This document shows positions 34,727 through 46,585 of a DNA stretch of 64,000 nt, piece after piece (within the stretch, counting starts at the first letter, position 1; each line of letters starts with the position of its first letter). This DNA comes from Bacteroidales bacterium. Its GTDB lineage: Bacteria; Bacteroidota; Bacteroidia; Bacteroidales; JAAUTT01. Both the position numbers and the translations under genes were made by a program. The notes below the pieces were generated by a model. It was not told the DNA's origin and searched no databases. It saw only the letters and a program-made list of their open reading frames with translations. The DNA is taken from positions 75,180 to 139,179 of the forward strand of contig JBBQTB010000008.1 in NCBI GenBank assembly GCA_038213375.1, written 5' to 3'.

Positions 34727-36163
34727 TTAGCTTAATTTTCGTTTCAAAAGTTCCGGTTTCTCCTTATAAAGATGTAATATTAATTCTCCGAAAATAGTAT
34801 TCGCCCATGCAAACCAGCTTCTTGAAAAATCTTTTGGATTATCTATATGAAACGATTCATGAATAAAGCCCGTTCCGGCATGAGTGTTCTTAAGTGTTGT
34901 TAAACAATAGATGATTTCATCGTCATTGTTGCTTGTTAAAGCTTGCATTACAAGTCCAAGAGGCCATATTTTACCCTCCCCTACATGAGGACCCCCAATT
35001 CCTTTCGCAAACTTACCCTCATTAAACCATGGATTATTGTGGCTAAGCGAAAACTTGCGTGAGTTCTTATAAACAGAATCCTCTTTCGTGCAATAACCCA
35101 GATATGGCAATGACAGGATGTTAGGTACATTGGCATCGTCCATGCACAAAGCGTTTCCAAATCCATCAATTTCCAGAGGGTAAATCTTCCCGGCTAATGG
35201 GTGTTCTACCATTGCATAATGCTTCAAAGCACCATCCACTTCATCGGCTAAATTCGCACATTCAACAGAAAATGTTGCATCACTCAATGTCTTACCAAAT
35301 ATTTCGCTTAGATGGCGAAGTGAAACAACCGCAAACATATTCGACGAAACCAGGTAGGGATAAAATGTAGAATCGTCGGAAGGGCGGAACATGGAATGAA
35401 TCAAACCGTTCTTCACCGTAGGATTGCCATACCCTCCTCCAAACTGGGAATCAGTTGGGTTTGCCGCATCACGTTGAAATTTATACGGACCTTTATTGGT
35501 TTTTCGTTGTTGCTCTTTAAAGGTATTAACAATAAGCTTCATAGCCTGTTGCCAGCTGCTATCAAAGGCTGATGCATCGCCGGTATTTTTCCAATATCCG
35601 TAAGCCAACCGAATGACGTAACAAAGCGAGTCGATTTCCCATTTGCGTTCATGCACACCAGGTTTCATGGTGGTATGATCTCCGACCCATTCGCTTTTCT
35701 TTTCAGGATCGTTGTAAAAAGCGTTGGCATAGGGATCGAGCAATACAAATTCAGCCTGTTTATTTATTACCCCTTTCAATAGATTTTTCAATTTTATGTC
35801 GCTGTTAGCAAGAGTCAGATAAGGCCAAACCTGTGCCGACGAATCGCGCAACCACATGGCATCGATATCTCCGGTAATGACGTATGTATAAGGCTTACCA
35901 TTTTTCTCCTCGTAAGTTACCGTTGTATCCAGCGTATTAGGAAAACAATTCTCGAACATCCATGCCAACTCTTCGTCAGCCATCACTTTTTTTATTTCCA
36001 GAATAGTATCTTCAACAGCTTTACTATTAAATCTGCGTTTGCTTACAACCGGACGCATGGAGTTAAAAGTGGTGATTGAATGATTCCCGAGTGAAGGAAT
36101 GCCAAAACTAATAGCTGTTGAGGCTAAACCGGTGATTTTTATAAAATTTCTTCGTGTAGACAT
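34727..36163 (-). CDS. GH125 exo-alpha-1,6-mannosidase family protein (Tat-type signal)
   Basis: STRRNFIKITGLAS twin-arginine-like signal. ITGDIDAMWLRDS and NPTDS..GYGNP motifs are typical of the DUF1237/GH125 family. Confidence 0.8.
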   Translation of the reverse strand: MSTRRNFIKITGLASTAISFGIPSLGNHSITTFNSMRPVVSKRRFNSKAVEDTILEIKKVMADEELAWMFENCFPNTLDTTVTYEEKNGKPYTYVITGDIDAMWLRDSSAQVWPYLTLANSDIKLKNLLKGVINKQAEFVLLDPYANAFYNDPEKKSEWVGDHTTMKPGVHERKWEIDSLCYVIRLAYGYWKNTGDASAFDSSWQQAMKLIVNTFKEQQRKTNKGPYKFQRDAANPTDSQFGGGYGNPTVKNGLIHSMFRPSDDSTFYPYLVSSNMFAVVSLRHLSEIFGKTLSDATFSVECANLADEVDGALKHYAMVEHPLAGKIYPLEIDGFGNALCMDDANVPNILSLPYLGYCTKEDSVYKNSRKFSLSHNNPWFNEGKFAKGIGGPHVGEGKIWPLGLVMQALTSNNDDEIIYCLTTLKNTHAGTGFIHESFHIDNPKDFSRSWFAWANTIFGELILHLYKEKPELLKRKLS

Positions 36164-36639: not shown

Positions 36640-37713
36640 TTATTTCTTCCCCGTCAAACTCTTAATCAAGTCAACTTCTTCCTGTTTGTATGGAGTTCCG
36701 TTGGTATGGAAAATCTCGTGAAACCATAGTTTTGGATCAGAACCATCAGGTGTTGGTTCGTCCCAGGCATATTTTGTGTTTGTTTTGCCGGACACCAATC
36801 CCCAGTTGATGGCAGCAATGTTTTCCTTTTTCAGCATTGGCATGATATTATCGAACCGGCTACGGTGTTTACGAGCCATATATTCGGTGCAAATCAGCGG
36901 CTTACCTATCCTTTTTAATGTATCAATACATTGTTGGTGCAGTGTGTCATTCTGATAATTATGATAGGTAATAACATCGGAATTCTCAACCTGAAATTTA
37001 TTTAATTCACCAAGATTTAAGCTCCAAACACCAGCAGAAAGTGGCTGAGATGGATTAACCTCACGACCCCATTGAAACACTTTCTTTAATAATGGCAACG
37101 ATTTGTTACCATAGTTTGAATTGCCTGGTTCGTTATACAAATCCCAAAGAACAATACGTTTGTCGGACGAAAATGTGGTAAGAACGTCTTTTACATAACG
37201 CTCCAGTACTGTAATAATGGCACTATCGGTATGAATCAGATCGCCCGGGTCGCGTACCCAACCTGAATTGTGAATGCCGATTTTAGGAGCGGGTTGTGTG
37301 CCTGCCTTATAGGTTGGATTCCAACAATCGTCGAAAATACAGAACACAGTAGAAATGCCATGTTTATTGGCAATGGTGAGGTATTGGTTCATACGGTTTT
37401 TAAAACCGGCTGTGTCGTTTTGCCATGCCAAATGATGAAGATAAACTCGCATGACATTCAAACCAATGGATTCGGCCCAACCGAGTTCGCGGTTGATGGT
37501 GACCGTATCGAAGGTTTCGGCTTGCCACATTTCCAATTGGTTAATGGCAGTACTAGGAATGAAATCGCAGCCACGCAGCCAACCCCATTGCGGATACCAT
37601 GCATTGGCCTGATCTTTTGTCCATACTTCGCGAACTTTAGTTTCATTTTTGGGACTGCAATTAACCAGAATTAATGCCGCCAAAAACAGTGACACATAGA
37701 AATTTTTTTTCAT
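36640..37713 (-). CDS. clan GH-A (GH5-like) glycoside hydrolase lipoprotein
   Basis: Lipoprotein signal MKKNFYVSLFLAALILVNCS, acid/base motif WDLYNEPGNS, and a TIM-barrel-like pattern. The ATG at 37713 is preferred over the track start at 37761. Confidence 0.7.
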   Translation of the reverse strand: MKKNFYVSLFLAALILVNCSPKNETKVREVWTKDQANAWYPQWGWLRGCDFIPSTAINQLEMWQAETFDTVTINRELGWAESIGLNVMRVYLHHLAWQNDTAGFKNRMNQYLTIANKHGISTVFCIFDDCWNPTYKAGTQPAPKIGIHNSGWVRDPGDLIHTDSAIITVLERYVKDVLTTFSSDKRIVLWDLYNEPGNSNYGNKSLPLLKKVFQWGREVNPSQPLSAGVWSLNLGELNKFQVENSDVITYHNYQNDTLHQQCIDTLKRIGKPLICTEYMARKHRSRFDNIMPMLKKENIAAINWGLVSGKTNTKYAWDEPTPDGSDPKLWFHEIFHTNGTPYKQEEVDLIKSLTGKK

Positions 37714-37972
37714 GATGTATTTATTTAATTTAGTTGAATGCACAAATGTAAAAAGATTCATAGGTTTTTAGAGGATGAAATCTAATTCATAACAATTGAT
37801 GAGAACGCAATTATTGGAAACTGAGCCAGCGTGTGAAACTTTTCCCAACTATGATAAGTAGCCTAAACTGGTAAGTCCAAAGATGCTGCCAGAGTTTAAA
37901 TTTCTAAAACTCCTTATTCCTTATTCTACTATCCCAACTTTTAGCTCCTACCTCCCCTTCCAACTTTTTTCC

Positions 37973-38002: not shown

Positions 38003-38959
38003 ATGCAAATCAAAAAAGCAGTGATCACCGCCGCCGCCAGAGGAGAAAGACTTTACCCGGTTGCCGATACCGTTCAGAAGGCTATGTTACCTGTTCTGGA
38101 TACTGATGGAATTAACAAACCCATTATACAAATTATAGCCGAAGAAGCTTTTTCAAGTGGAATTGAAGAGATTTGCGTGATATGCGCTCCCGGCGATGCC
38201 GAACGATATGTGGAAAGCTTTCGATCCCTTCATAACACCTTGTTGAAAGCATATAAGTACAGCGATTGGGCACAATTTCAGGCAACCAGCATTAAAAATT
38301 TGCTTGATCGCATCAGCTTCAAAGTTCAGGAAAAACCACAAGGGTATGGCGATGCCGTATATCAGGCGAAAGAATTTGTCCATAACGAAACTTTTCTACT
38401 GCTTCTAGGTGATTATCTGTATGTTTCTGATTTGCCCGGCAAACGTTGTGCCCAGCAATTAATTGATTTGGCTAATCGCGAAGATTGCTCGGCTTCGGCC
38501 GTGAATCCTACCATTGAACACTTGATTAGCAGGTACGGAACCCTTACCGGGAAATCGGTGTTGAATTATAATGGTGTCTATCAAATAGAACGGATTATCG
38601 AAAAGCCATCGGTAAGTCAGGCAGAACTGGAGCTTCAAACTCCCGGCCTTCGGGCTGGTTATTACCTTTGTTTTTTTGGGATGCACATCTTTAAGCCTAC
38701 TATTTTTGATTTACTGGAAGAAAGAATTCGTGATAATCCTGATGGAAAAAGCATACTGTTAACACCTGTTCAGGAAGAACTGGCAAAAACAGACAAATAC
38801 CTTGCTTTGGAAATGAAAGGCAACCGTTACGATACAAGTAAAAAATTAGGATTGTTGCAAGCTCAGCTGGCACTTGGATTGGCTGGCAAAGTAAAGGATG
38901 AGGTGCTTTCTTCTATCATTCAAATAATGGCTGAATCTGATAAAAGAAATTTTAAATAG
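38003..38959 (+). CDS. GalU-like sugar-1-phosphate nucleotidyltransferase with a divergent signature motif
   Basis: AVITAAARGERLYPVADTVQKAMLPV aligns with the [26 protein letters not shown] signature, but the GxGTR core is replaced. QEKPQGYGDAV is present. Confidence 0.65.
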   Translation: MQIKKAVITAAARGERLYPVADTVQKAMLPVLDTDGINKPIIQIIAEEAFSSGIEEICVICAPGDAERYVESFRSLHNTLLKAYKYSDWAQFQATSIKNLLDRISFKVQEKPQGYGDAVYQAKEFVHNETFLLLLGDYLYVSDLPGKRCAQQLIDLANREDCSASAVNPTIEHLISRYGTLTGKSVLNYNGVYQIERIIEKPSVSQAELELQTPGLRAGYYLCFFGMHIFKPTIFDLLEERIRDNPDGKSILLTPVQEELAKTDKYLALEMKGNRYDTSKKLGLLQAQLALGLAGKVKDEVLSSIIQIMAESDKRNFK

Positions 38960-39021
38960 AGGCAAGAGGCAAGAGGCAAGAGGCATGTGACTTGTGACGT
39001 GAGGCAAGAGGCATGAGGACT
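38959..39021 (+). repeat. nine tandem heptamers (GAGGCAA x3, GAGGCAT, GTGACTT, GTGACGT, GAGGCAA, GAGGCAT, GAGGACT)
   Basis: Read directly. The array starts at the last base of the TAG stop of the GalU-like gene and ends about 40 nt before the ATG at 39062. Confidence 0.85.
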
Positions 39022-39061
39022 TTATGACAAATGATAATCAAATAACCCGTAACCTGTAATC

Positions 39062-42000
39062 ATGAACCATTTCATAAAAACCATCATATCGCATGAGCCC
39101 GAGATCCGGAATCGTTCATTTCATGAATTATGTAAAGGGTTACCGGCAAAGCAGCTTATCTCATCGTTTAAAGAACTCGACGAATTTCGAAAAACCACGC
39201 AAAACTTATATGAGCGTGTGCGAGCCAGCATATTCTTGTATGCTGGATATCGGTTCTTTTTAATGGAATCTCCATCTATTCCGGCTATCGGGCGAATCCC
39301 TGCCGATGGATTCGAAAACTTGTTAAAACGGAATTTCGAAAAAGCAATCAGTATTTTTCTCAATGAAATGCATGATCACGGGCCCAATTCAAATATTTTC
39401 AGTTGTCTGGCCGAGAGTTATCATCATCTTACATTTCAGATTCTGGCCGATCAGGTTCGGAAGAGCGTTCGTTTAAATCGCGGCAATCAATGGATGTTTC
39501 GTGTTGGTCATTATGATGAACATCCTCTGAAGATCCATCCAAAAATGCTTCACCGACCAGAGGGCTCGATGCTTTTTCCCGTTCTACAGGAAAAAACTTC
39601 GGTACGTATGGATTTGACGCACAGCTGTTGGTCGGATATTTTCTTTCTCGGAATGGATTATCCTGAAGGAGCCAGAGTAATTAATGTTTCAATTGATTTG
39701 GGTGTATATGGACGTGATAATGATATCAAACCTCCCCTTGAATCGTATGTGAGAGTGATCAATGAACCTGTTATACGGTTAACTTCCTTGGATTTAAAGG
39801 ATACAAAAGACATTACCGACTTGTCTGATCTATTTAATTTTGGCAACGATTATTTGGGTCTTTTAAAAGCCGCGATCGTTTCATCCGGATTTATTCCTTC
39901 CTCTTTCGAAGGGACAACTCATAAAATAGAAGACATTCTGGGTCGGATTATTTCTCCTGGCATGGGCATTGAGCTTGTTACAAAGGTGAACGATATACCA
40001 AAAGGCTCGCGTTTGGCGGTTTCAACTAATTTATTGGCATCAATGATTAGCGCATTGATGAGGGCTACACAGCAAACGCAATCCATTGAAGGCGCCCTCA
40101 CGGAGCAGGAACGAAGACTTATTGCTTCGCGTGCCATACTTGGCGAATGGCTGGGAGGTTCCGGTGGTGGATGGCAGGATTCAGGTGGTATCTGGACGGG
40201 CATCAAATCCATTGAAGGAGCTTTAGCAAGCGAAGGCGATCCTGAGTTTTCTATTAGCCGCGGATGCTTGTTGCCCAGACATCGGGTATTGGATGGAGAA
40301 AATCTTCATCCCGATTTCGAAAAAAAATTAACCTCATCGCTTGTGCTTATGCATGGAGGAATGGCCTCTAATGTTGGGCCGATCCTCGAAATGGTAACAG
40401 AGAAATACTTGTTGCGAAATCAAAAGGAATGTTACGCCCGGCAAAAAGCCAATTCCATTTATGACGAAATACTGGAATTATTAAAAGATAGCGACATTCA
40501 AAAACTCGCCTCATTTACGTCGCAAAATTTTACCGGTCCAATAAAAACAATCATACCTTGGGCAACTACCCATTTTACAGAAGTGCTGATCGATAAAGCG
40601 AAGAAAGCTTTTGGTGATAATTATTGGGGTTTTCTAATGCTTGGAGGTATGTCGGGTGGAGGTATGGGTATGTTTGTAAATCCTTCCATTCATGCCGAAG
40701 CCAAAGACAAGACTTTGCAAATACTTTGTAAAACTAAAAATGAGCTTTCCGATAGTCTTCCTTTCGCCATGACACCTGTGGTTTATAACTTCAACATTAA
40801 TCATCATGGTTCATTTGCAGCTTTGCTTACAAAAAATGAAGCGTTGATGCCCGACGAATATTATGCCATGCACATCCCTTTGCTGGTTCGGCAAAATCCT
40901 GAAAAGCTTCCCGAAATAAGGAAAATTGAAATTGACAAAATAACCGGTAAAACATCTGGTAGCGACGCTGCATTTCCTCTTTTGAGGTCGATTGTAGGTA
41001 ATTTGTTCAAGTTTTCTTCAACGGCAGAATCGGTTGAAAAATTACAACAAAACGAAGAGACTGAATTTATTAAGAAAGTAAATGGTTTCGATTTTATTCA
41101 GCATGAACAAATAAGGCAGGATCTTTTTAAAGGACGCATCGGTCTTTCACGAAATCGTCTCCCTGCTGAAACTATCATTGAAGACATTTCTTCAGATGAC
41201 ATTACTGTATTAAGCAATATCTCCGACGATGATGGCACCGGAGCATCTTCCATTGCTGCAGGCCATGTGGCAGTAATGTGTTTGGCAGCCGGAGTTGGCA
41301 GCCGATGGACGAAAGGCGCAGGTGTAATAAAGGCAATTAATCCTTTTGTGGAGATAAACGGCAAACATCGCTCTTTTCTTGAAATACATTTGTCGAAAAC
41401 ACAACTTACCAATAACAAGTATAACGGACACATCCCTTTTATCATTGCCACCAGCTATCTAACGCATCATCCCATTGAAAAGGAACTTAATGCAACATTA
41501 AATTACGGTTATCAGGAAAAAATTTACCTTTCACCCGGAAAGTCAATAGGACAGCGATTTATCCCAATGGAACGCGATTTACGATTTCTTTGGGAGGAGA
41601 TGCCTCAGGAACAACTCGATGAAAACAAACAAAAAGTTCGTGAATCTGTTCGTGCTTCTCTCATTAATTGGGCAAAAAGCAAAGGTGAGAGTACTGATTA
41701 TTTTGACAATACTTCAGCTCAACGACTTAGTCCGCTTGGTCACTGGTATGAAATTCCAAACATGCTGCGCAACGGATCATTGGTAAAACTGCTTAAAAAC
41801 AACCAGAAACTTGAGCATATTATGCTTCATAATATCGACACACTAGGAGCCGATGTTCTGCCCGAGGCATTAAACTACCACATCAAATCAGGCAATGCGC
41901 TAACTTTCGAAGTCCTACCCCGAAGAATTGATGATCGTGGGGGTGGACTGGCTCGTATCAATGGTAAAGTGCGATTGCTCGAAGGCCTGGCACAACCACA

Positions 42001-42397
42001 TGAGGAAGACGAATTAGGACTCAGTTATTACAGCACACTTACCTGCTGGATAAACATAGATAAGCTTCTCGAAATATTCGGCCTTACCCGTAAAAGCCTT
42101 GAAGTAGCCGGCGAAGATGAACTGGCAGAAGCTGTGCGACGGATCGCCCGCCGTATGCCGTCGTATGTTACAATAAAGGATGTTAAATATCGGTGGGGTC
42201 ATGGCCAGGAAGACATTTATCCTGTTGCCCAGATAGAAAAACTTTGGGGGGATATGAGCGGGCTTTCTGATGTCCAATGCGGATATATGGTGGTGCCACG
42301 GTTGCGCGGTCAGCAACTGAAAGATCCTTCCCAGCTGGATGCGTGGGTAAACGACGGAAGTAAAGAGTATATCGTATCGCTTTGCGAGTTTAAATAA
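39062..42397 (+). CDS. 1111-aa multidomain protein: N-terminal unknown region, GHMP-kinase-like (fucokinase-like) domain, C-terminal UDPGP-type NDP-sugar pyrophosphorylase-like domain
   Basis: GHMP-like elements PKGSRLAVSTNLLASMISAL, GGSGGGWQDSGG and GFLMLGGMSGGGMGMFV. C-terminal MCLAAGVGSRWTKGAGVIKAINPF and NIDTLGA resemble eukaryote-type UDP-sugar pyrophosphorylases. Confidence 0.55.
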   Translation: MNHFIKTIISHEPEIRNRSFHELCKGLPAKQLISSFKELDEFRKTTQNLYERVRASIFLYAGYRFFLMESPSIPAIGRIPADGFENLLKRNFEKAISIFLNEMHDHGPNSNIFSCLAESYHHLTFQILADQVRKSVRLNRGNQWMFRVGHYDEHPLKIHPKMLHRPEGSMLFPVLQEKTSVRMDLTHSCWSDIFFLGMDYPEGARVINVSIDLGVYGRDNDIKPPLESYVRVINEPVIRLTSLDLKDTKDITDLSDLFNFGNDYLGLLKAAIVSSGFIPSSFEGTTHKIEDILGRIISPGMGIELVTKVNDIPKGSRLAVSTNLLASMISALMRATQQTQSIEGALTEQERRLIASRAILGEWLGGSGGGWQDSGGIWTGIKSIEGALASEGDPEFSISRGCLLPRHRVLDGENLHPDFEKKLTSSLVLMHGGMASNVGPILEMVTEKYLLRNQKECYARQKANSIYDEILELLKDSDIQKLASFTSQNFTGPIKTIIPWATTHFTEVLIDKAKKAFGDNYWGFLMLGGMSGGGMGMFVNPSIHAEAKDKTLQILCKTKNELSDSLPFAMTPVVYNFNINHHGSFAALLTKNEALMPDEYYAMHIPLLVRQNPEKLPEIRKIEIDKITGKTSGSDAAFPLLRSIVGNLFKFSSTAESVEKLQQNEETEFIKKVNGFDFIQHEQIRQDLFKGRIGLSRNRLPAETIIEDISSDDITVLSNISDDDGTGASSIAAGHVAVMCLAAGVGSRWTKGAGVIKAINPFVEINGKHRSFLEIHLSKTQLTNNKYNGHIPFIIATSYLTHHPIEKELNATLNYGYQEKIYLSPGKSIGQRFIPMERDLRFLWEEMPQEQLDENKQKVRESVRASLINWAKSKGESTDYFDNTSAQRLSPLGHWYEIPNMLRNGSLVKLLKNNQKLEHIMLHNIDTLGADVLPEALNYHIKSGNALTFEVLPRRIDDRGGGLARINGKVRLLEGLAQPHEEDELGLSYYSTLTCWINIDKLLEIFGLTRKSLEVAGEDELAEAVRRIARRMPSYVTIKDVKYRWGHGQEDIYPVAQIEKLWGDMSGLSDVQCGYMVVPRLRGQQLKDPSQLDAWVNDGSKEYIVSLCEFK

Positions 42398-42589
42398 AAA
42401 TCTTAGTACTTGGTAATTGGTACTTTACAATTATTTGTGTTAAATTTACTCTTAATTCATGGGGCGGGATAATTGATAAATCAATCCCTGATAAGGCAAT
42501 ATTATATTACGTAATCAACTGATAGTTATACCAAAACAGATGGGGAAATTTATTTCCCTGCACAGAAGTTCACCTAAAAAACTAGTGCA

Positions 42590-44374
42590 ATGGTTACAAA
42601 AAAAGTTAATAAATACGATTTTGGAGTCATAGGAAATTGTTCTTATCTTGGTTATATTGATACAAAGGCAAACGTAAACTGGTTATGTTTACCAAGGTTT
42701 GACAGTAGTTTTTTATTTGGATCACTTCTTGATCATGAAAAGGGTGGAGAATTCAGTATTTCTCCTGCTACGGACGATTATAAATCCAAACAGTACTATA
42801 TCAAGAATACCAATATATTAGCCACTGAATTTGAGATGGCTGAAGGCAGGTTTCGAGTGGTTGATTTTGCACCTCGTTTTTATCAATACGAACGTTATTT
42901 TAAGCCGTTAATGCTATTCCGAAAAATAGAACTGCTCGAAGGCAATCCTTTTATCTCAGTAGTATGCCGTCCCGTGGGCGATTATGGCTCAATGATACCT
43001 GAAACTGTGGGGGGCAGCAATCATATTCGTTTTTTGAATTTTAATACGCAGGTTCGCCTTACCACCGACATACCTTTAGGTTATATTTTAAGTAAAAAAT
43101 CGTTTGTTCTAACCGAAACAAAATATGCTGTATTTAGTTATGGCGTACCTCTGGAAGCGCCGCTGGCTGAAACTACTGAGTCGTTTCTTACTAAAACTAA
43201 AAAGTATTGGACCGATTGGGTAAAGGCTACTTCCGTTCCTAATATTTATCAGGATGAGGTAATTCGTTCTGCATTAGTGTTAAAGCTTCATCAATACGAA
43301 GATACAGGAGCTGTGATAGCTTCCGGAACAACCAGTTTACCCGAATTTAACGGCTCGCAGCGTACTTGGGATTACCGTTACTGCTGGATGCGTGATACAT
43401 ATTATACTCTAAACGCTTTTAATAATATCGGGCACTTTGAAGAATTGGAGAGTTACTTTCAATTTATTCAAAATATTATAATGAATGAAAAGCAACAAAT
43501 AAAGCCCTTGTATACCATTCTTGGCGATAGGGTTCCTAACGAAAAAATATTGCTTCTTGACGGATATCAGCATAACAAGCCTGTTAGAACAGGAAATAAC
43601 GCCATTGATCAGGTTCAGAACGATGTATATGGTCAGATTCTGATTAGTTTATTGCCATTATTTATTGATAAACGTCTGAATTATATTGATCGGAAAAAAA
43701 CCGAATTCATTACCGAATGGCTTCTCGATCGTATAGAAGAATATATGGACATTCCTGACTCAGGACTTTGGGAATTCGGAACAACAAATCAATTTCATTG
43801 TTACACATATTTGTTTCATTGGGCAGGGTGCAGGGCTGCTGCCAAAATTGGCAGGTTTATTGATAGTGATAGATTAATAAGAAAGGCGGAATCACTAACC
43901 AGACAATCGATTCTATTTATCGAAAAATGCTACAGTCCAACAAAACTGGCTTATACTCAGGCAGTAGGTAATGAACATCTGGACGCAAGTAATTTGCAAC
44001 TGATACTTATGAGTTACCTTAACCCGGGAAGCGATATAGCTATGAACCATTTAAAAGCACACGAAAAGGAGTTGTTCAGAGACGATAATTTATTTTTTAG
44101 ATACACCCGTGACGATTTAGGAAAGGCTGAAACTTCATTTCTAATTTGCGGTTTTTGGTATGCCGAGACGCTTGCAGCCACAGGACGGCTAGACAAGGCA
44201 CAAGAAATAATTGAAAAACTTCTGAAGTGTTCCAATCATTTAGGCTTATTTAGTGAGGATGCCGACGAAAACTTCGGACAATGGGGTAATTTTCCACAAA
44301 CATATAGCCATGTGGGATTGGTAAACGCCATTTATAAATTATCCATGAAGATTGATAAACCCATTTTTTTGTAA
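42590..44374 (+). CDS. GH15 glycoside hydrolase (glucoamylase/trehalase-like)
   Basis: N-terminal GVIGNCSYLGYID...NWLCLPRFDS, WDYRYCWMRDTYYTL, and the C-terminal (alpha/alpha)6 motif FPQTYSHVGLVNA. Confidence 0.8.
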   Translation: MVTKKVNKYDFGVIGNCSYLGYIDTKANVNWLCLPRFDSSFLFGSLLDHEKGGEFSISPATDDYKSKQYYIKNTNILATEFEMAEGRFRVVDFAPRFYQYERYFKPLMLFRKIELLEGNPFISVVCRPVGDYGSMIPETVGGSNHIRFLNFNTQVRLTTDIPLGYILSKKSFVLTETKYAVFSYGVPLEAPLAETTESFLTKTKKYWTDWVKATSVPNIYQDEVIRSALVLKLHQYEDTGAVIASGTTSLPEFNGSQRTWDYRYCWMRDTYYTLNAFNNIGHFEELESYFQFIQNIIMNEKQQIKPLYTILGDRVPNEKILLLDGYQHNKPVRTGNNAIDQVQNDVYGQILISLLPLFIDKRLNYIDRKKTEFITEWLLDRIEEYMDIPDSGLWEFGTTNQFHCYTYLFHWAGCRAAAKIGRFIDSDRLIRKAESLTRQSILFIEKCYSPTKLAYTQAVGNEHLDASNLQLILMSYLNPGSDIAMNHLKAHEKELFRDDNLFFRYTRDDLGKAETSFLICGFWYAETLAATGRLDKAQEIIEKLLKCSNHLGLFSEDADENFGQWGNFPQTYSHVGLVNAIYKLSMKIDKPIFL

Positions 44375-44377
44375 ACC

Positions 44378-46585
44378 ATGAAAACTTTTAGCGAACTGAG
44401 TTATAACAGGCTGGTAATTATTGCCTACCGATTACCGTTTAAGCTTGTGAAAAAGGGAAATGTTAATATAGCGGTCCAAAATGCCGGAGGTTTAGTTTCG
44501 GCCATTCTTTCGCTATCAGAAAAGATGAATATTAGTTCTGGTAGTGACTCGAAAATACTTTGGATTGGTACTGGTGAAAAACAGCTTGGGAAGGAAAATA
44601 TCAACCCAAAATTTGATCTTCTTCCTGTGGAAATTCCCGATCAAATAAACGATGAGTATTATGGGGGATTTTGCAACGATACTATCTGGCCTCTGTTTCA
44701 TTATTTTCCATCGCTTACCGTCTACAATCCAACTTATTATGAGTCGTATGCTAAAGCGAATCAAATTTTTGCCGATACACTCAAAGATGTAATCAAACCA
44801 GGCGATTTCATTTGGGTACACGATTACCAATTGTTTCATTTACCTTCACTTATACGAAGTTATTTTCCTGATGCCAAGATTGGTTTTTTCCTTCATATTC
44901 CATTTCCTTCCTCGGAACTTTTCCGGCATCTGCCCCGTACATGGCGCGAGTCAATCCTGAAAGGAATTATAGGGGCCGACCTAATTGGATTTCATACCAA
45001 TGACTATACTCAGCATTTTATCAAATCTGTTAAAAGGACACTTGGTTGCGAAATAAATCAAAATTACATCTACGTAGAGGATAGGATATGTAAGGTAGAT
45101 GCATTCCCGATTGGTATCGATTTTGATAAGTTTCACGAGGCTTGTTCTTTACCAAAGGTGCTTAAAGAAAAGGAACGATTAAAGAAGCAATTAAAGGGTA
45201 AAAAGCTAATTTTTTCGGTAGATCGGTTGGATTACACCAAAGGTTTCTTATATCGGCTGCTCGCTTATGAGCGTTTTCTGGAAAAATACCCAAAATGGCA
45301 TCAAAAGTCTGTTTTTAATATGGTCGTGGTTCCGTCAAGAGACAATATTGATCGGTATCGGGATATAAAAAAGGAAATTGAAGCCACCGTTGGCCGGATA
45401 AATGGAAACTATAGTAACTTGGCCTGGAGACCATTAATATATCAGTATAAATCACTGTCATTTGAGGAACTTATAGCTCTTTATGATATAAGTGACGTAG
45501 GATTAATAACTCCGCTGCGCGATGGAATGAATCTGGTTGCAAAGGAATATGTGGCGTGTCAAAAAGAAAACAATGGAATGCTGGTTTTAAGCGAGATGGC
45601 TGGCGCCGCGGTGGAGCTTAACGAAGCTATTATAATTAATCCAACCGATGTGGAAGAAACAGCTGATGCTATAGACAAAGCGCTTGGCCTCCCTCAAAAG
45701 GAAAAGGAGCAAAAAATACATAAAATGCAGAACCGGCTAAGTCGTTACAATGTTTTTACATGGGCGACCGATTTTTTTAATCAGGCAGAAGATGTTACAG
45801 ACAAACAAAAACAAATGAAAGTGAATTTTTTAGAACCTCATGCTTTAACCGATATACGATCAACGTATTGTAAAACTGGTAAACGAGTGATATTTATTGA
45901 TTATGACGGCACCTTAATACCATTATCAAAATATCCGGATATGGCAATTTTGAACGAAAGGGCGGGAAACACCATTAAAAAACTGATTGACGACACAAGA
46001 AATAAAGTAATCATTATCAGTGGCAGGGAATGTGAATTTCTTGAAAGGCAGTTTGAAGGTCTTGATGTGACACTTGTTGCCGAGCATGGCTATTTTGTAA
46101 AAAATCCCAAAAAGGATTGGATAACAAAAAACTCCGTAGATCTGGCCTGGAAAGAAAAATTTTTACCTATTATGAATGAGTATGTTGACCGTTGCAATGG
46201 ATCGATGATTGAAGAAAAACATGCCTCAATAGCTTGGCATTACCGAAATGCCGATGAAGGAATTGCTTCCATACGTATTAATGAACTAAAGGACGATTTG
46301 ACGGAAATTTTAAAGACCGACTCAAAACTTCAGGTGCTGGAAGGGAATAAGGTGCTGGAAATTAAAAGTGTACTTTATGATAAGGGTACGGCAGCTCTCG
46401 AATTTCTAAATAAAAAAAAATACGATTTCATTATGGCTATTGGCGATGATAAAACGGACGAAGATTTATTCAATGTAATACCTGAATATGGATTCACCAT
46501 TAAAATTGGAACTAATCCATCCAAAGCCAAATTCAATTTAAAAAGGCAATCCCAAATTTATGAGATTTTGGAATTTTTATGCTAA
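44378..46585 (+). CDS. otsAB: bifunctional trehalose-6-phosphate synthase (GT20) / trehalose-6-phosphate phosphatase (HAD)
   Basis: GT20 motifs FCNDTIWPLFHYF, VHDYQLFHLP and RDGMNLVAKEY. The C-terminal HAD motifs are IFIDYDGTL and GDDKTDEDLF. Confidence 0.9.
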   Translation: MKTFSELSYNRLVIIAYRLPFKLVKKGNVNIAVQNAGGLVSAILSLSEKMNISSGSDSKILWIGTGEKQLGKENINPKFDLLPVEIPDQINDEYYGGFCNDTIWPLFHYFPSLTVYNPTYYESYAKANQIFADTLKDVIKPGDFIWVHDYQLFHLPSLIRSYFPDAKIGFFLHIPFPSSELFRHLPRTWRESILKGIIGADLIGFHTNDYTQHFIKSVKRTLGCEINQNYIYVEDRICKVDAFPIGIDFDKFHEACSLPKVLKEKERLKKQLKGKKLIFSVDRLDYTKGFLYRLLAYERFLEKYPKWHQKSVFNMVVVPSRDNIDRYRDIKKEIEATVGRINGNYSNLAWRPLIYQYKSLSFEELIALYDISDVGLITPLRDGMNLVAKEYVACQKENNGMLVLSEMAGAAVELNEAIIINPTDVEETADAIDKALGLPQKEKEQKIHKMQNRLSRYNVFTWATDFFNQAEDVTDKQKQMKVNFLEPHALTDIRSTYCKTGKRVIFIDYDGTLIPLSKYPDMAILNERAGNTIKKLIDDTRNKVIIISGRECEFLERQFEGLDVTLVAEHGYFVKNPKKDWITKNSVDLAWKEKFLPIMNEYVDRCNGSMIEEKHASIAWHYRNADEGIASIRINELKDDLTEILKTDSKLQVLEGNKVLEIKSVLYDKGTAALEFLNKKKYDFIMAIGDDKTDEDLFNVIPEYGFTIKIGTNPSKAKFNLKRQSQIYEILEFLC

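What the first reader, a model, noticed from the sequence alone, without database searches (positions are those of the whole stretch)
38003..46585. Trehalose cluster with two atypical nucleotidyltransferases, including an 1111-aa kinase-like/pyrophosphorylase-like fusion
Seen, in one co-directional block:
- A GalU-like gene whose GxGTRxLPxTK signature is replaced (AARGERLYPVADTVQK).
- An 1111-aa protein with a roughly 300-aa unknown N-terminal region. This is followed by a GHMP/fucokinase-like core with a degenerate phosphate-binding motif (PKGSRLAVSTNLLAS where GSGLGSS is expected, plus GGGWQDSGG and GGMSGGGMG). It ends in a eukaryote-type UDPGP-like domain.
- A GH15 enzyme.
- A fused OtsA-OtsB.

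Established: OtsA needs an NDP-glucose donor. Some GH15 enzymes are trehalases. Bacteroides FKP couples an anomeric sugar kinase to a pyrophosphorylase in one polypeptide, in the opposite domain order.

Inference: the large protein could be a salvage enzyme running sugar to sugar-1-P to NDP-sugar. That would close a trehalose cycle: GH15 releases glucose, the fusion re-activates it, and OtsAB rebuilds trehalose. Alternatively it is a regulatory pseudo-enzyme. The specificity of both nucleotidyltransferases is unknown.
Basis: partly seen in the sequence, partly recalled or inferred. Interest (0 to 1): 0.6.

Follow-up and report, generated by a model that had tools for sequence, protein, structure and literature searches.

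The report
Kinase-pyrophosphorylase unit beside trehalose genes
The block is two separate conserved gene pairs that lie side by side only in this lineage: an ordinary trehalose make-and-break pair, and a widespread, unstudied pair that probably turns a still-unknown free sugar into a UDP-sugar.

Summary
The block splits into two independent modules.

- **Trehalose pair.** A GH15 trehalase-like gene and a fused OtsA-OtsB gene. GH15 lay within 6 kb of OtsAB in 16 of 20 sampled Bacteroidota loci.
- **Two-gene unit.** A GalU-like gene followed by the 1111-aa fucokinase-type GHMP/UDPGP fusion. The GalU-like gene sat directly upstream in 90 of 93 loci from at least eight phyla.

The two modules touch only here and in one 95%-identical relative: 1 of 92 other loci. 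About half of the carrier genomes have no OtsA.

The fusion does not look like a decayed pseudo-enzyme. The equivalents of the three B. fragilis FKP kinase residues (R182, D192, D373) and the UDPGP nucleotide loop are invariant. Folds match fucokinase and eukaryote-type UDP-glucose pyrophosphorylases.

The GalU-like partner keeps the GalU fold and its base and sugar-phosphate positions. It has lost P-loop and metal residues, so it is probably a regulatory or altered subunit.

The sugar is unknown. This scan had already met the two-gene unit on other genomes.

The parts
38003..38959 (+). GalU-like nucleotidyltransferase-fold partner protein (318 aa). This is the first gene of the conserved two-gene unit.
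   Evidence: It matches PF00483 (E 1.5e-21) and scores 136.7 bits on TIGR01099, below the 326.8 cut-off. The AF2 model has pLDDT 92.9 and a GalU fold, with TM 0.84 to B. subtilis YngB 7b1r. A homologue lies directly upstream of the fusion gene in 90 of 93 loci.
38033..38080 (+). Altered nucleotide-phosphate loop, AARGERLYPVADTVQK, which replaces the GalU sequence [16 protein letters not shown].
   Evidence: The alignment to YngB shows G to A, T to E and K to D. Most family members lack this 8-residue segment altogether. It contains the model's only stretch with pLDDT below 50, residues 14-20.
38960..39061 (+). Spacer of 102 bp containing a run of GAGGCAA heptamers.
   Evidence: Read directly. 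The 95%-identical relative has a spacer 29 nt shorter with fewer heptamers. The median distance from the end of the GalU-like alignment to the fusion start in other loci is about 39 nt. Rfam gave no match.
39062..42397 (+). The 1111-aa fusion protein: helical N-domain, fucokinase-type GHMP kinase, linker and UDPGP-type pyrophosphorylase.
   Evidence: The AF2 model has pLDDT 85.7 and pTM 0.85. More than 8000 relatives were found, in 2409 representative clusters.
39062..39571 (+). N-terminal all-helical domain of about 170 aa, function unknown.
   Evidence: Residues 1-175 gave no Pfam match. The model shows helices H3-H146 at pLDDT 84-96. The domain is conserved across the family, for example R16, L39, R43, L49, V53 and R54 are invariant.
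39587..40861 (+). Fucokinase-type GHMP sugar kinase domain (aa about 176-600).
   Evidence: A family profile matches B. fragilis FKP residues 583-940 at E 1e-20. Foldseek gives TM 0.82 to the FKP fucokinase part 9iip and 0.81 to the heptose kinase WcbL. R182, D192 and D373 align with FKP R592, D601 and D762 (PMC12732313) and are invariant. Only the fucokinase NCBIfam model matches.
41222..42394 (+). UDPGP-family (eukaryote-type) sugar-1-phosphate uridylyltransferase domain (aa about 721-1111).
   Evidence: PF01704 scores 47.5 bits, above the cut-off of 22. Profile matches to UDP-glucose pyrophosphorylases reach E 1e-26 to 1e-21, against 1e-9 for UAP and 7e-5 for USP. Foldseek hits include human UGP 4r7p and plant and fungal UGP and UAP. 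The loop LAAGVGSRW (741-749), H894, N924, D926 and K1039 are invariant or nearly so.
42590..44374 (+). GH15 glycoside hydrolase, trehalase-like (594 aa).
   Evidence: It matches PF00723 (E 2e-45) and TREH_N, and TreH1 at 314.6 bits. It is the only GH15 in the genome. A GH15 homologue lies within 6 kb of OtsAB in 16 of 20 sampled Bacteroidota loci.
44378..46585 (+). Bifunctional trehalose-6-phosphate synthase/phosphatase, a fused OtsA-OtsB (735 aa). It starts 3 nt after the GH15 stop codon.
   Evidence: PRK14501 scores 920.4 bits (cut-off 634). GT20 covers aa 11-471 and Trehalose_PPase covers aa 506-721. It is the only OtsA in the genome. Open frames of about 740-760 aa, the fused size, are the commonest form among the phylum's OtsA matches.

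Best explanation
**Two independent operon-like modules lie in tandem here.**

**Module A (38003-42397).** This is a widespread, uncharacterised two-gene unit.
- The 1111-aa protein most likely phosphorylates the anomeric hydroxyl of a free sugar with ATP, using its fucokinase-type GHMP domain. It then converts the sugar-1-phosphate with UTP into a UDP-sugar, using its UGPase-like UDPGP domain. That makes it a one-chain salvage enzyme.
- The GalU-like partner keeps the GalU fold, the uracil-binding Gln and the EKP sugar-phosphate lysine.
- The partner has lost the P-loop Thr and Lys and one metal-binding Asp.
- The partner therefore most likely acts as a non-catalytic or weakly catalytic subunit that binds a UDP-sugar. 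I recall GalF relative to GalU, and GMPPA relative to GMPPB, as analogies.
- The sugar is not identified.

**Module B (42590-46585).** This is the usual Bacteroidota pair of a GH15 trehalase-like hydrolase and a fused OtsA-OtsB trehalose synthase/phosphatase.

**The adjacency.** The side-by-side placement is confined to this lineage. It may let module A supply UDP-glucose to OtsAB in this organism, but module A's general function does not depend on trehalose.

**Shown versus inferred.** Shown: domain identities, folds, residue conservation and gene-linkage statistics. Inferred: both enzyme activities, the partner's role, and any coupling to trehalose.
For: **Domains and folds.**

**Kinase residues.** R182, D192 and D373 align with FKP R592, D601 and D762. 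Those FKP residues are reported as needed for fucokinase activity in PMC12732313. All three are invariant in 39 sequences from many phyla.

**UDPGP domain.** The nucleotide loop and the N924/D926/K1039 positions are invariant or nearly so. The closest solved relatives are UDP-glucose pyrophosphorylases.

**Two-gene unit.**
- The GalU-like gene is directly upstream in 90 of 93 loci.
- No third gene is conserved in the neighbourhood.
- Partner and fusion identities co-vary, r = 0.91.

**Partner.**
- It has the GalU fold, TM 0.84.
- Q109, D137, E200-K201-P202 and R275 are invariant, as are the G215, R217 and C223-G226 positions of a family-specific PGLRAG.YLCFFG insert.
- The P-loop is altered or deleted.

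**Trehalose pair.**
- PRK14501 scores 920 bits.
- GH15 lies beside OtsAB in 16 of 20 loci.

**Independence of the modules.**
- GH15/OtsAB lie beside the unit in 1 of 92 other loci.
- OtsA was not found in 5 of 10 Bacteroidota carriers, 4 of 8 Planctomycetota carriers and 4 of the 4 carriers tested from other phyla.
Against: - No activity has been measured for any member that I could find.
- GHMP motif II carries Arg where a Gly is usual (GSRLAVST), so ATP binding could be altered.
- The kinase domain is closest to L-fucokinase while the pyrophosphorylase is closest to UDP-glucose enzymes. The two halves therefore do not point to the same sugar.
- Why a second nucleotidyltransferase-fold protein is always present is unexplained. 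The regulatory-subunit role rests on analogy only.
- Genome-level co-occurrence with OtsA is enriched: 5 of 10 carriers against 50 of 390 non-carriers in Bacteroidota (Fisher p = 0.006), and 4 of 8 against 33 of 173 in Planctomycetota. Some physiological link to trehalose therefore cannot be excluded. Relatedness among genomes confounds these counts, and genome size may too: among the Bacteroidota carriers, those with OtsA are mostly the larger genomes.
- No transcript data were available.
Confidence: 0.6

Rival explanations
1. **The first reader's trehalose cycle.** GH15 splits trehalose to glucose. The fusion phosphorylates glucose at C1 and makes UDP-glucose. OtsAB rebuilds trehalose. The four genes are one dedicated operon.
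For: - The genes are co-directional, and the arrangement is kept in the 95%-identical relative.
- The UDPGP domain is closest to UDP-glucose pyrophosphorylases.
- The genome has no canonical GalU, and the fusion is its only UDPGP-family protein.
- OtsA is enriched among carrier genomes.
- A distant clade fuses the core to ROK-type sugar kinase domains.
Against: - The linkage is absent in 91 of 92 other loci, including relatives at 77-78% identity.
- About half of the carriers tested lack OtsA.
- 50 of 55 OtsA-bearing Bacteroidota genomes lack the unit, and canonical GalU is rare in the phylum (8 of 401). OtsAB there gets its donor from elsewhere.
- A 192-bp gap separates the fusion gene from GH15.
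- The kinase domain matches only the fucokinase model, with no match to any glucose or galactose kinase model.
- Running hydrolysis and resynthesis together would be a futile, ATP- and UTP-consuming cycle.
Confidence: 0.12
2. **Housekeeping UGPase with a regulatory kinase-like domain.** The UDPGP domain is the organism's UDP-glucose pyrophosphorylase, working on Glc-1-P from phosphoglucomutase. The GHMP-like half and the GalU-like partner are sensor or regulatory modules rather than enzymes.
For: - The genome has no canonical GalU.
- It has three phosphohexomutase-family genes.
- NCBI names the family UTP--glucose-1-phosphate uridylyltransferase.
- Motif II departs from the consensus.
Against: - The kinase Arg/Asp/Asp set, the GGGWQD motif and motif III are invariant across phyla. 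Such conservation is not expected of a mere scaffold.
- The unit is patchy: 11 of 401 Bacteroidota genomes and 8 of 181 Planctomycetota genomes. Most relatives have neither GalU nor the unit, so it is not the general solution for making UDP-glucose.
- Two carriers also have a true GalU.
Confidence: 0.12
3. **Sugar-phosphate route, like GDP-heptose synthesis.** The GHMP domain phosphorylates C1 of a sugar-6-phosphate, as HddA/WcbL do on heptose-7-P. A phosphatase removes the distal phosphate. The UDPGP domain then makes the UDP-sugar, bypassing phosphoglucomutase.
For: - Foldseek places the heptose-7-P kinase WcbL (TM 0.81) almost level with the FKP kinase (0.82).
- The giant relative P0145 joins a ROK kinase domain, the kinase/UDPGP core and an inositol-monophosphatase-family domain in one chain. 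P0157 joins the core to a ROK domain.
Against: - At sequence level only the fucokinase model matches.
- No ROK or IMPase homologue was found near the unit in the 93 loci or in the window.
- The two giant proteins are 52% identical in the core, so they represent one lineage.
Confidence: 0.06
4. **The whole unit is a non-enzymatic pseudo-enzyme pair**, for example a sugar or nucleotide sensor.
For: Both the GalU-like P-loop and GHMP motif II depart from their consensus sequences.
Against: Catalytic positions of the kinase and the UDPGP halves are invariant. The family shows 65% mean column identity across the 39 aligned sequences, which come from many phyla.
Confidence: 0.05

Closest known systems
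Bacteroides fragilis FKP, the bifunctional L-fucokinase / GDP-L-fucose pyrophosphorylase (PDB 5yys, 9iit, 9iip)
   Same: - One chain joins an anomeric GHMP sugar kinase to a sugar-1-phosphate nucleotidyltransferase.
- The kinase domains are homologous (profile E 1e-20, TM 0.82).
- They share the R/D/D catalytic set, the GGGWQD motif and the RxDL...WSD motif.
   Different: - The domain order is reversed.
- The pyrophosphorylase here is a UDPGP (PF01704, eukaryote-type UGPase-like), not the FKP GDP-fucose type.
- There is an extra helical N-domain of about 170 aa.
- A GalU-like partner gene is nearly always present.
- Motif II is GSRLAVST, where FKP has GSGLGTSS.
- Sugar and nucleotide specificity are untested.
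Eukaryote-type UDP-glucose pyrophosphorylases (UGP: A. thaliana 1z90/2icy, human 4r7p/3r2w, fungal 8c0b/7ppr)
   Same: - These are the best sequence and fold matches for the C-terminal 390 aa.
- The nucleotide loop is G-x-G-[ST]-R/S type.
- The PxGH and N-x-D-x-L-G motifs are present.
   Different: - Identity is only 15-20%.
- The domain is fused behind a kinase.
- There is no evidence that glucose-1-P is the substrate.
Zebrafish glucuronokinase / putative UDP-GlcA pyrophosphorylase (DrGKUP, PMC3938481), and plant sugar-1-kinases working with USP
   Same: They follow the same salvage logic: a GHMP sugar-1-kinase followed by a UDP-sugar pyrophosphorylase. In DrGKUP the two are fused in one chain.
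   Different: DrGKUP has a short bacterial-type nucleotidyltransferase at the N-terminus and the kinase at the C-terminus. Plants use separate proteins.
GalF (paralogue of GalU) and GMPPA (paralogue of GMPPB), recalled as catalytically impaired nucleotidyltransferase paralogues that modulate the active enzyme
   Same: The GalU-like partner keeps the fold and the base and sugar-phosphate binding positions, but has lost P-loop catalytic residues.
   Different: No interaction or regulation has been shown here. The partner's substitutions differ from those recalled for GalF. The analogy rests on my own knowledge and was not tested.
[quoted passage not shown]
   Same: The OtsA-OtsB gene passes the PRK14501 equivalog cut-off. 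The GH15 has the trehalase-type N-domain and the usual position next to OtsAB.
   Different: Here the pair is co-directional with a 3-nt gap, and it lies downstream of the kinase-pyrophosphorylase unit. The GH15 scores below the archaeal equivalog cut-off, so trehalase activity is inferred.

Membership tests
GHMP kinase superfamily, fucokinase branch | GHMP two-lobed kinase fold | tested here: met
   The AF2 model (pLDDT 85.7) gives Foldseek TM 0.82 to the FKP fucokinase part 9iip and 0.81 to WcbL 4usk.
GHMP kinase superfamily, fucokinase branch | Catalytic Arg and two Asp, equivalent to B. fragilis FKP R592, D601 and D762 | tested here: met
   R182, D192 and D373 align to these residues and are invariant in 39 sequences. 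Their roles are described in PMC12732313.
GHMP kinase superfamily, fucokinase branch | Motif II phosphate-binding loop, P-x-G-S-G-L-G-S-S | tested here: inconclusive
   The loop reads PKGSRLAVST, with Arg for the second Gly and Ala-Val for Gly-Ser/Thr. It is invariant in the main clade and reads GSGLAVST in the distant clade. Pfam GHMP models give no match.
GHMP kinase superfamily, fucokinase branch | ATP-dependent phosphorylation of a sugar at C1 | not testable with these tools
   This needs an enzyme assay.
UDPGP family (PF01704) | Pfam score above the gathering cut-off | tested here: met
   The score is 47.5 bits against a cut-off of 22.
UDPGP family (PF01704) | Fold, nucleotide-binding loop and conserved motif positions | tested here: met
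   Foldseek hits to UGP and UAP have probability 1.0. LAAGVGSRW, PLGH and NIDTLGA are present, and G744, R748, H894, K1039 (invariant), N924 and D926 (nearly invariant) are conserved.
UDPGP family (PF01704) | UTP plus sugar-1-P giving UDP-sugar plus PPi | not testable with these tools
   This needs an enzyme assay.
FKP-type bifunctional fucokinase/GDP-fucose pyrophosphorylase (NF009948) | N-terminal GDP-fucose pyrophosphorylase followed by a C-terminal fucokinase, with a score above the equivalog cut-off | tested here: not met
   The score is 53.5 bits against a cut-off of 721. Only the kinase part matches, the order is reversed, and the pyrophosphorylase belongs to another family.
GalU (TIGR01099), for the 318-aa protein | Equivalog score and the G-x-G-T-R-x-L-P-A-T-K loop | tested here: not met
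   The score is 136.7 bits against 326.8. The loop reads A-R-G-E-R-L-Y-P-V-A-D. The Asp of the GalU QLTD motif is Pro in P0001 and in most family members.
GalU (TIGR01099), for the 318-aa protein | GalU fold with uracil-binding Gln and EKP lysine | tested here: met
   TM is 0.84 to YngB. Q109 and E200-K201-P202 are invariant.
Bifunctional OtsA/OtsB (NF011071, PRK14501) | Equivalog score, with a GT20 domain plus a trehalose-phosphatase domain | tested here: met
   The score is 920.4 bits against a cut-off of 634. PF00982 covers aa 11-471 and PF02358 covers aa 506-721.
GH15 trehalase | GH15 catalytic domain plus the trehalase-type N-domain | tested here: met
   PF00723 at E 2e-45 and PF19291 at E 2.5e-10.
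GH15 trehalase | Equivalog-level match to a characterised trehalase, and trehalose hydrolysis | tested here: inconclusive
   TreH1 scores 314.6 bits, below the 820 cut-off. The conserved position next to OtsAB (16 of 20 loci) supports the role. Activity was not tested.
A four-gene 'trehalose operon' that includes the fusion | Conserved linkage of the fusion unit to otsAB/GH15 across genomes | tested here: not met
   Only 1 of 92 other loci has GH15/OtsAB within 10 kb (within 8-9 kb for the 12 loci fetched). Where a genome has both, they are about 0.4-2.3 Mb apart or on different contigs.

The most novel reading that the evidence does not exclude
The GalU-like protein and the kinase-UDPGP fusion form one regulated complex. 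It would be a widespread, undescribed bacterial route from a free sugar to a UDP-sugar. The catalytically crippled GalU paralogue would sense the UDP-sugar product, as a bacterial counterpart of GMPPA/GMPPB. In this lineage the complex would have been recruited beside GH15/OtsAB to recycle glucose from trehalose into UDP-glucose.
Probability: 0.15. Interest if true: 0.65.

Novelty: new variant of a known kind. Interest (0 to 1): 0.42.

Why it matters
**The two-gene unit.**
- It is large: more than 8000 proteins, in 2409 representative clusters (E up to 0.001).
- It occurs in at least eight bacterial phyla and in an oxymonad eukaryote.
- It is highly conserved.
- Databases label it simply as UDP-glucose pyrophosphorylase, and I found no paper that assays it.

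If the unit is a kinase-pyrophosphorylase with a dedicated pseudo-GalU subunit, three things follow:
- It would add a new architecture to nucleotide-sugar salvage.
- It would correct a mass annotation.
- It could give a one-pot enzyme for UDP-sugar synthesis.

**This window specifically.** The lesson is negative but useful. The adjacency to trehalose genes is local, so it cannot be used to assign glucose as the substrate for the family.

Tried and rejected
- **A third conserved neighbour to reveal the sugar.** I clustered 1277 neighbouring ORFs from 92 loci. Nothing recurs beyond the two genes. The one 14-locus cluster appears to be an antisense shadow ORF over the GalU-like gene.
- **The unit as a replacement for a missing GalU.** Rejected. 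Canonical GalU was found in only 8 of 401 phylum genomes, with or without the unit, and two carriers have both.
- **The genome's other GalU-like hit as the hidden UGPase.** It is RmlA, in an rmlA-rmlC cluster.
- **Promoter, terminator and Rfam scans of the spacers.** Promoter-like sites were at the shuffle mean (31 against 32.4). Terminator-like sites were less than 2 sd above it (14 against 8.9, sd 3.0). Rfam gave no match.
- **A GalU-like domain hidden in the giant relatives.** None was found.
- **ROK or IMPase homologues near the bacterial units.** None was found.
- **Other GHMP families for the kinase half.** At E up to 10, only the fucokinase model matched it.
- **Literature searches for a characterised member.** Nothing was found.
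- I corrected it by first obtaining a genome handle.

Full report
**1. What is there**

The + strand between 38003 and 46585 carries four ORFs. The gaps between them are 102, 192 and 3 nt.

| Gene | Size | Main matches |
|---|---|---|
| Gene 1 | 318 aa | NTP_transferase fold. Best NCBIfam model is GalU, at 136.7 bits against a cut-off of 326.8 |
| Gene 2 | 1111 aa | Fucokinase half of PRK13412 over residues 178-387, and PF01704 UDPGP near the C-terminus |
| Gene 3 | 594 aa | GH15 with the trehalase-type N-domain. Best model is archaeal trehalase TreH1 |
| Gene 4 | 735 aa | Passes the equivalog cut-off for bifunctional OtsA/OtsB (920 bits against 634) |

The flanking genes are unrelated to trehalose:
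- a GH125 alpha-mannosidase and a glycosidase-like lipoprotein upstream, on the minus strand;
- an O-acetylhomoserine sulfhydrylase-like PLP enzyme downstream.

**2. The large protein**

A profile of the family matches B. fragilis FKP residues 583-940, the whole fucokinase domain, at E 1e-20. The same profile matches eukaryote-type UDP-glucose pyrophosphorylases at E 1e-26 to 1e-21. UDP-GlcNAc pyrophosphorylases (1e-9) and USP (7e-5) match more weakly.

An AlphaFold2 model built on 39 sequences is confident, with pLDDT 85.7 and pTM 0.85. Its features:
- Residues 1-170 form an all-helical domain with no Pfam match.
- The kinase part superposes on the FKP fucokinase domain (TM 0.82) and on the heptose-7-P kinase WcbL (0.81).
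- The C-terminal part superposes on human, plant and fungal UGP and UAP.
- Most segments with pLDDT below 50 are the glycine-rich active-site loops: 314-316, 368-370, 530-532 and 745-753.

The pairwise alignment puts R182, D192 and D373 on FKP R592, D601 and D762. The FKP paper reports those residues as needed for fucokinase activity and as nearly 100% invariant (PMC12732313). All three are invariant in my 39-sequence alignment. So are GSRLAVST (motif II), SGGGWQDSGG, motif III and the UDPGP loop positions G744 and R748.

In the distant clade motif II reads GSGLAVST. The 'degenerate' motif is therefore a fixed variant, not decay. At sequence level only the fucokinase model matches the kinase half, even at E up to 10.

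**3. The GalU-like protein**

Against the active B. subtilis UGPase YngB, the P-loop [12 protein letters not shown] reads AARGERLYPVAD. The Asp of the GalU QLTD motif is Pro.

Across 67 family members:
- the 8-residue ATKxxPKE segment is deleted in the majority;
- D137, E200-K201-P202 and R275 are invariant or nearly so;
- an 11-residue insert, PGLRAG.YLCFFG, is strongly conserved.

In the 37-sequence alignment Q109, the uracil-binding Gln of GalU, and G114/G116 are also invariant.

The model has pLDDT 92.9 and a GalU fold (TM 0.84). Only the altered loop, residues 14-20, is disordered.

So this is a selected, divergent GalU paralogue. It keeps the base and sugar-phosphate positions but lacks several residues that GalU/RmlA enzymes use for catalysis. 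That last point is from established knowledge of the family. I infer a regulatory or altered-function subunit. This is not shown.

**4. Linkage**

The fusion family is large:
- more than 8000 hits in the word-indexed search;
- 2409 representative clusters;
- at least 559 loci in the species-level genome collection.

The phyla named include Bacteroidota, Nitrospirota, Hydrogenedentota, Acidobacteriota, Planctomycetota, Verrucomicrobiota, Chloroflexota and Armatimonadota. There is also an oxymonad eukaryote.

Within a phylum the unit is patchy: 11 of 401 Bacteroidota genomes and 8 of 181 Planctomycetota genomes.

In 93 loci the GalU-like gene is directly upstream in 90. Two of the three exceptions are cut by contig ends. 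The two proteins' identities to the window's copies co-vary, r = 0.91. No third gene recurs.

GH15 and OtsAB lie within 10 kb only in one metagenome contig whose fusion is 95% identical. Relatives at 77-78% identity have an ECF sigma/FecR pair downstream in one case and a TMEM260-like gene in the other.

Conversely, GH15 lies within 6 kb of OtsAB in 16 of 20 sampled Bacteroidota OtsAB loci, in various orientations. None of those loci carries the unit.

The block is therefore two conserved pairs placed in tandem in this lineage.

**5. Co-occurrence at genome level**

| Phylum sample | OtsA in carriers | OtsA in non-carriers |
|---|---|---|
| Bacteroidota | 5 of 10 | 50 of 390 (Fisher p = 0.006) |
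| Planctomycetota | 4 of 8 | 33 of 173 |

Where a genome has both, they are about 0.4-2.3 Mb apart or on different contigs. Five carriers from five phyla were tested directly. Four of them, all outside Planctomycetota, lack OtsA.

The enrichment is real in these samples. In the Bacteroidota sample the OtsA-positive carriers are mostly the larger genomes.

The counts show that the unit does not need OtsA, and that OtsAB does not need the unit. They leave room for a loose physiological link.

**6. Is the unit this genome's UDP-glucose source?**

The genome is 99.3% complete. It has:
- no protein over the GalU cut-off, and no other UDPGP;
- RmlA in an rml cluster;
- three phosphohexomutase-family genes.

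That would make a local supply role for OtsAB sensible. But canonical GalU is rare throughout the phylum (8 of 401). Of 55 OtsA-bearing genomes, 50 lack the unit. So another, unidentified donor route must serve OtsAB in most relatives.

**7. Leads not resolved**

- Two giant relatives fuse the kinase/UDPGP core to other domains. P0145 (2318 aa) adds ROK sugar-kinase and inositol-monophosphatase-family domains. P0157 (2939 aa) adds a ROK domain. They are 52% identical to each other in the core, so they count as one lineage. They hint at hexose metabolism, or at a route through a sugar bisphosphate like GDP-heptose synthesis. No ROK or IMPase gene lies near the bacterial units.
- The kinase half points to L-fucose-like sugars and the pyrophosphorylase half to UDP-glucose-like products. 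The substrate cannot be named from sequence.

**8. Regulation**

Rfam gave no match. Promoter-like sites were at the shuffle mean and terminator-like sites less than 2 sd above it. The heptamer run in the first spacer is shorter in the 95% relative. It is therefore a variable short repeat, not a conserved element.

**9. Comparison with what is known, and novelty**

The closest known systems are:
- FKP: the same kinase family, but the opposite domain order and a different pyrophosphorylase family;
- zebrafish GKUP and the plant sugar-1-kinase/USP salvage route (PMC3938481);
- eukaryote-type UGPases.

The unit fails membership of FKP and of GalU on tested features. It passes for the GHMP fold and catalytic set, and for UDPGP.

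I found no paper that characterises a member. This scan had already noted and followed up the same two-gene unit on other genomes. My independent tests agree with those notes.

What this window adds is the test of the trehalose link, which is negative. The trehalose pair itself is ordinary.

**Verdict.** The trehalose-cycle interpretation is not supported. The kinase-pyrophosphorylase unit with its GalU-like partner is a real, unstudied variant of a known kind of salvage enzyme.

Noticed in passing
window 38960-39061; L020 3638-3710: The spacer between the GalU-like gene and the fusion gene holds a run of GAGGCAA heptamers. The 95%-identical relative has a spacer 29 nt shorter with fewer copies, so the repeat number varies between close relatives.
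   Followed up: partly
proteins P0145 (2318 aa) and P0157 (2939 aa), from metagenome contigs: These giant relatives fuse the kinase/UDPGP core to other domains: P0145 to ROK sugar-kinase and inositol-monophosphatase-family domains, P0157 to a ROK domain. They are 52% identical to each other in the core. P0152 (1292 aa) comes from the oxymonad Blattamonas, so the family also occurs in a eukaryote.
   Followed up: partly
own genome, contig C7 about 67.1-71.0 kb (L002): An rmlC-rmlA cluster with a dehydratase-like gene lies next to a 582-aa phosphohexomutase. The genome has no canonical GalU and no PF02685 glucokinase. How it and most of its phylum make UDP-glucose is unclear: GalU was found in only 8 of 401 genomes.
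   Followed up: partly
window 42398-42589: The 192-bp spacer before GH15 contains two short hairpins: GGGAT...ATCCC, and GGGAAAT-TTA-TTTCCC. The first is unchanged and the second differs by one loop base in the 95% relative. They are too close in sequence to tell whether this reflects selection.
   Followed up: no
window 34727-36163 (-) and 36640-37761 (-): Upstream on the other strand lie a GH125 alpha-mannosidase and a 373-aa protein with a lipoprotein-like N-terminus and a weak GH2 TIM-barrel match. Of the two, the 373-aa gene was looked for in relatives and recurs only in the 95% relative.
   Followed up: no
L101-L120 (Bacteroidota OtsAB loci): GH15 and fused OtsA-OtsB are neighbours in 16 of 20 sampled genomes, in divergent, convergent and co-directional arrangements. 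A hydrolase paired with the synthase appears to be the rule in this phylum.
   Followed up: partly
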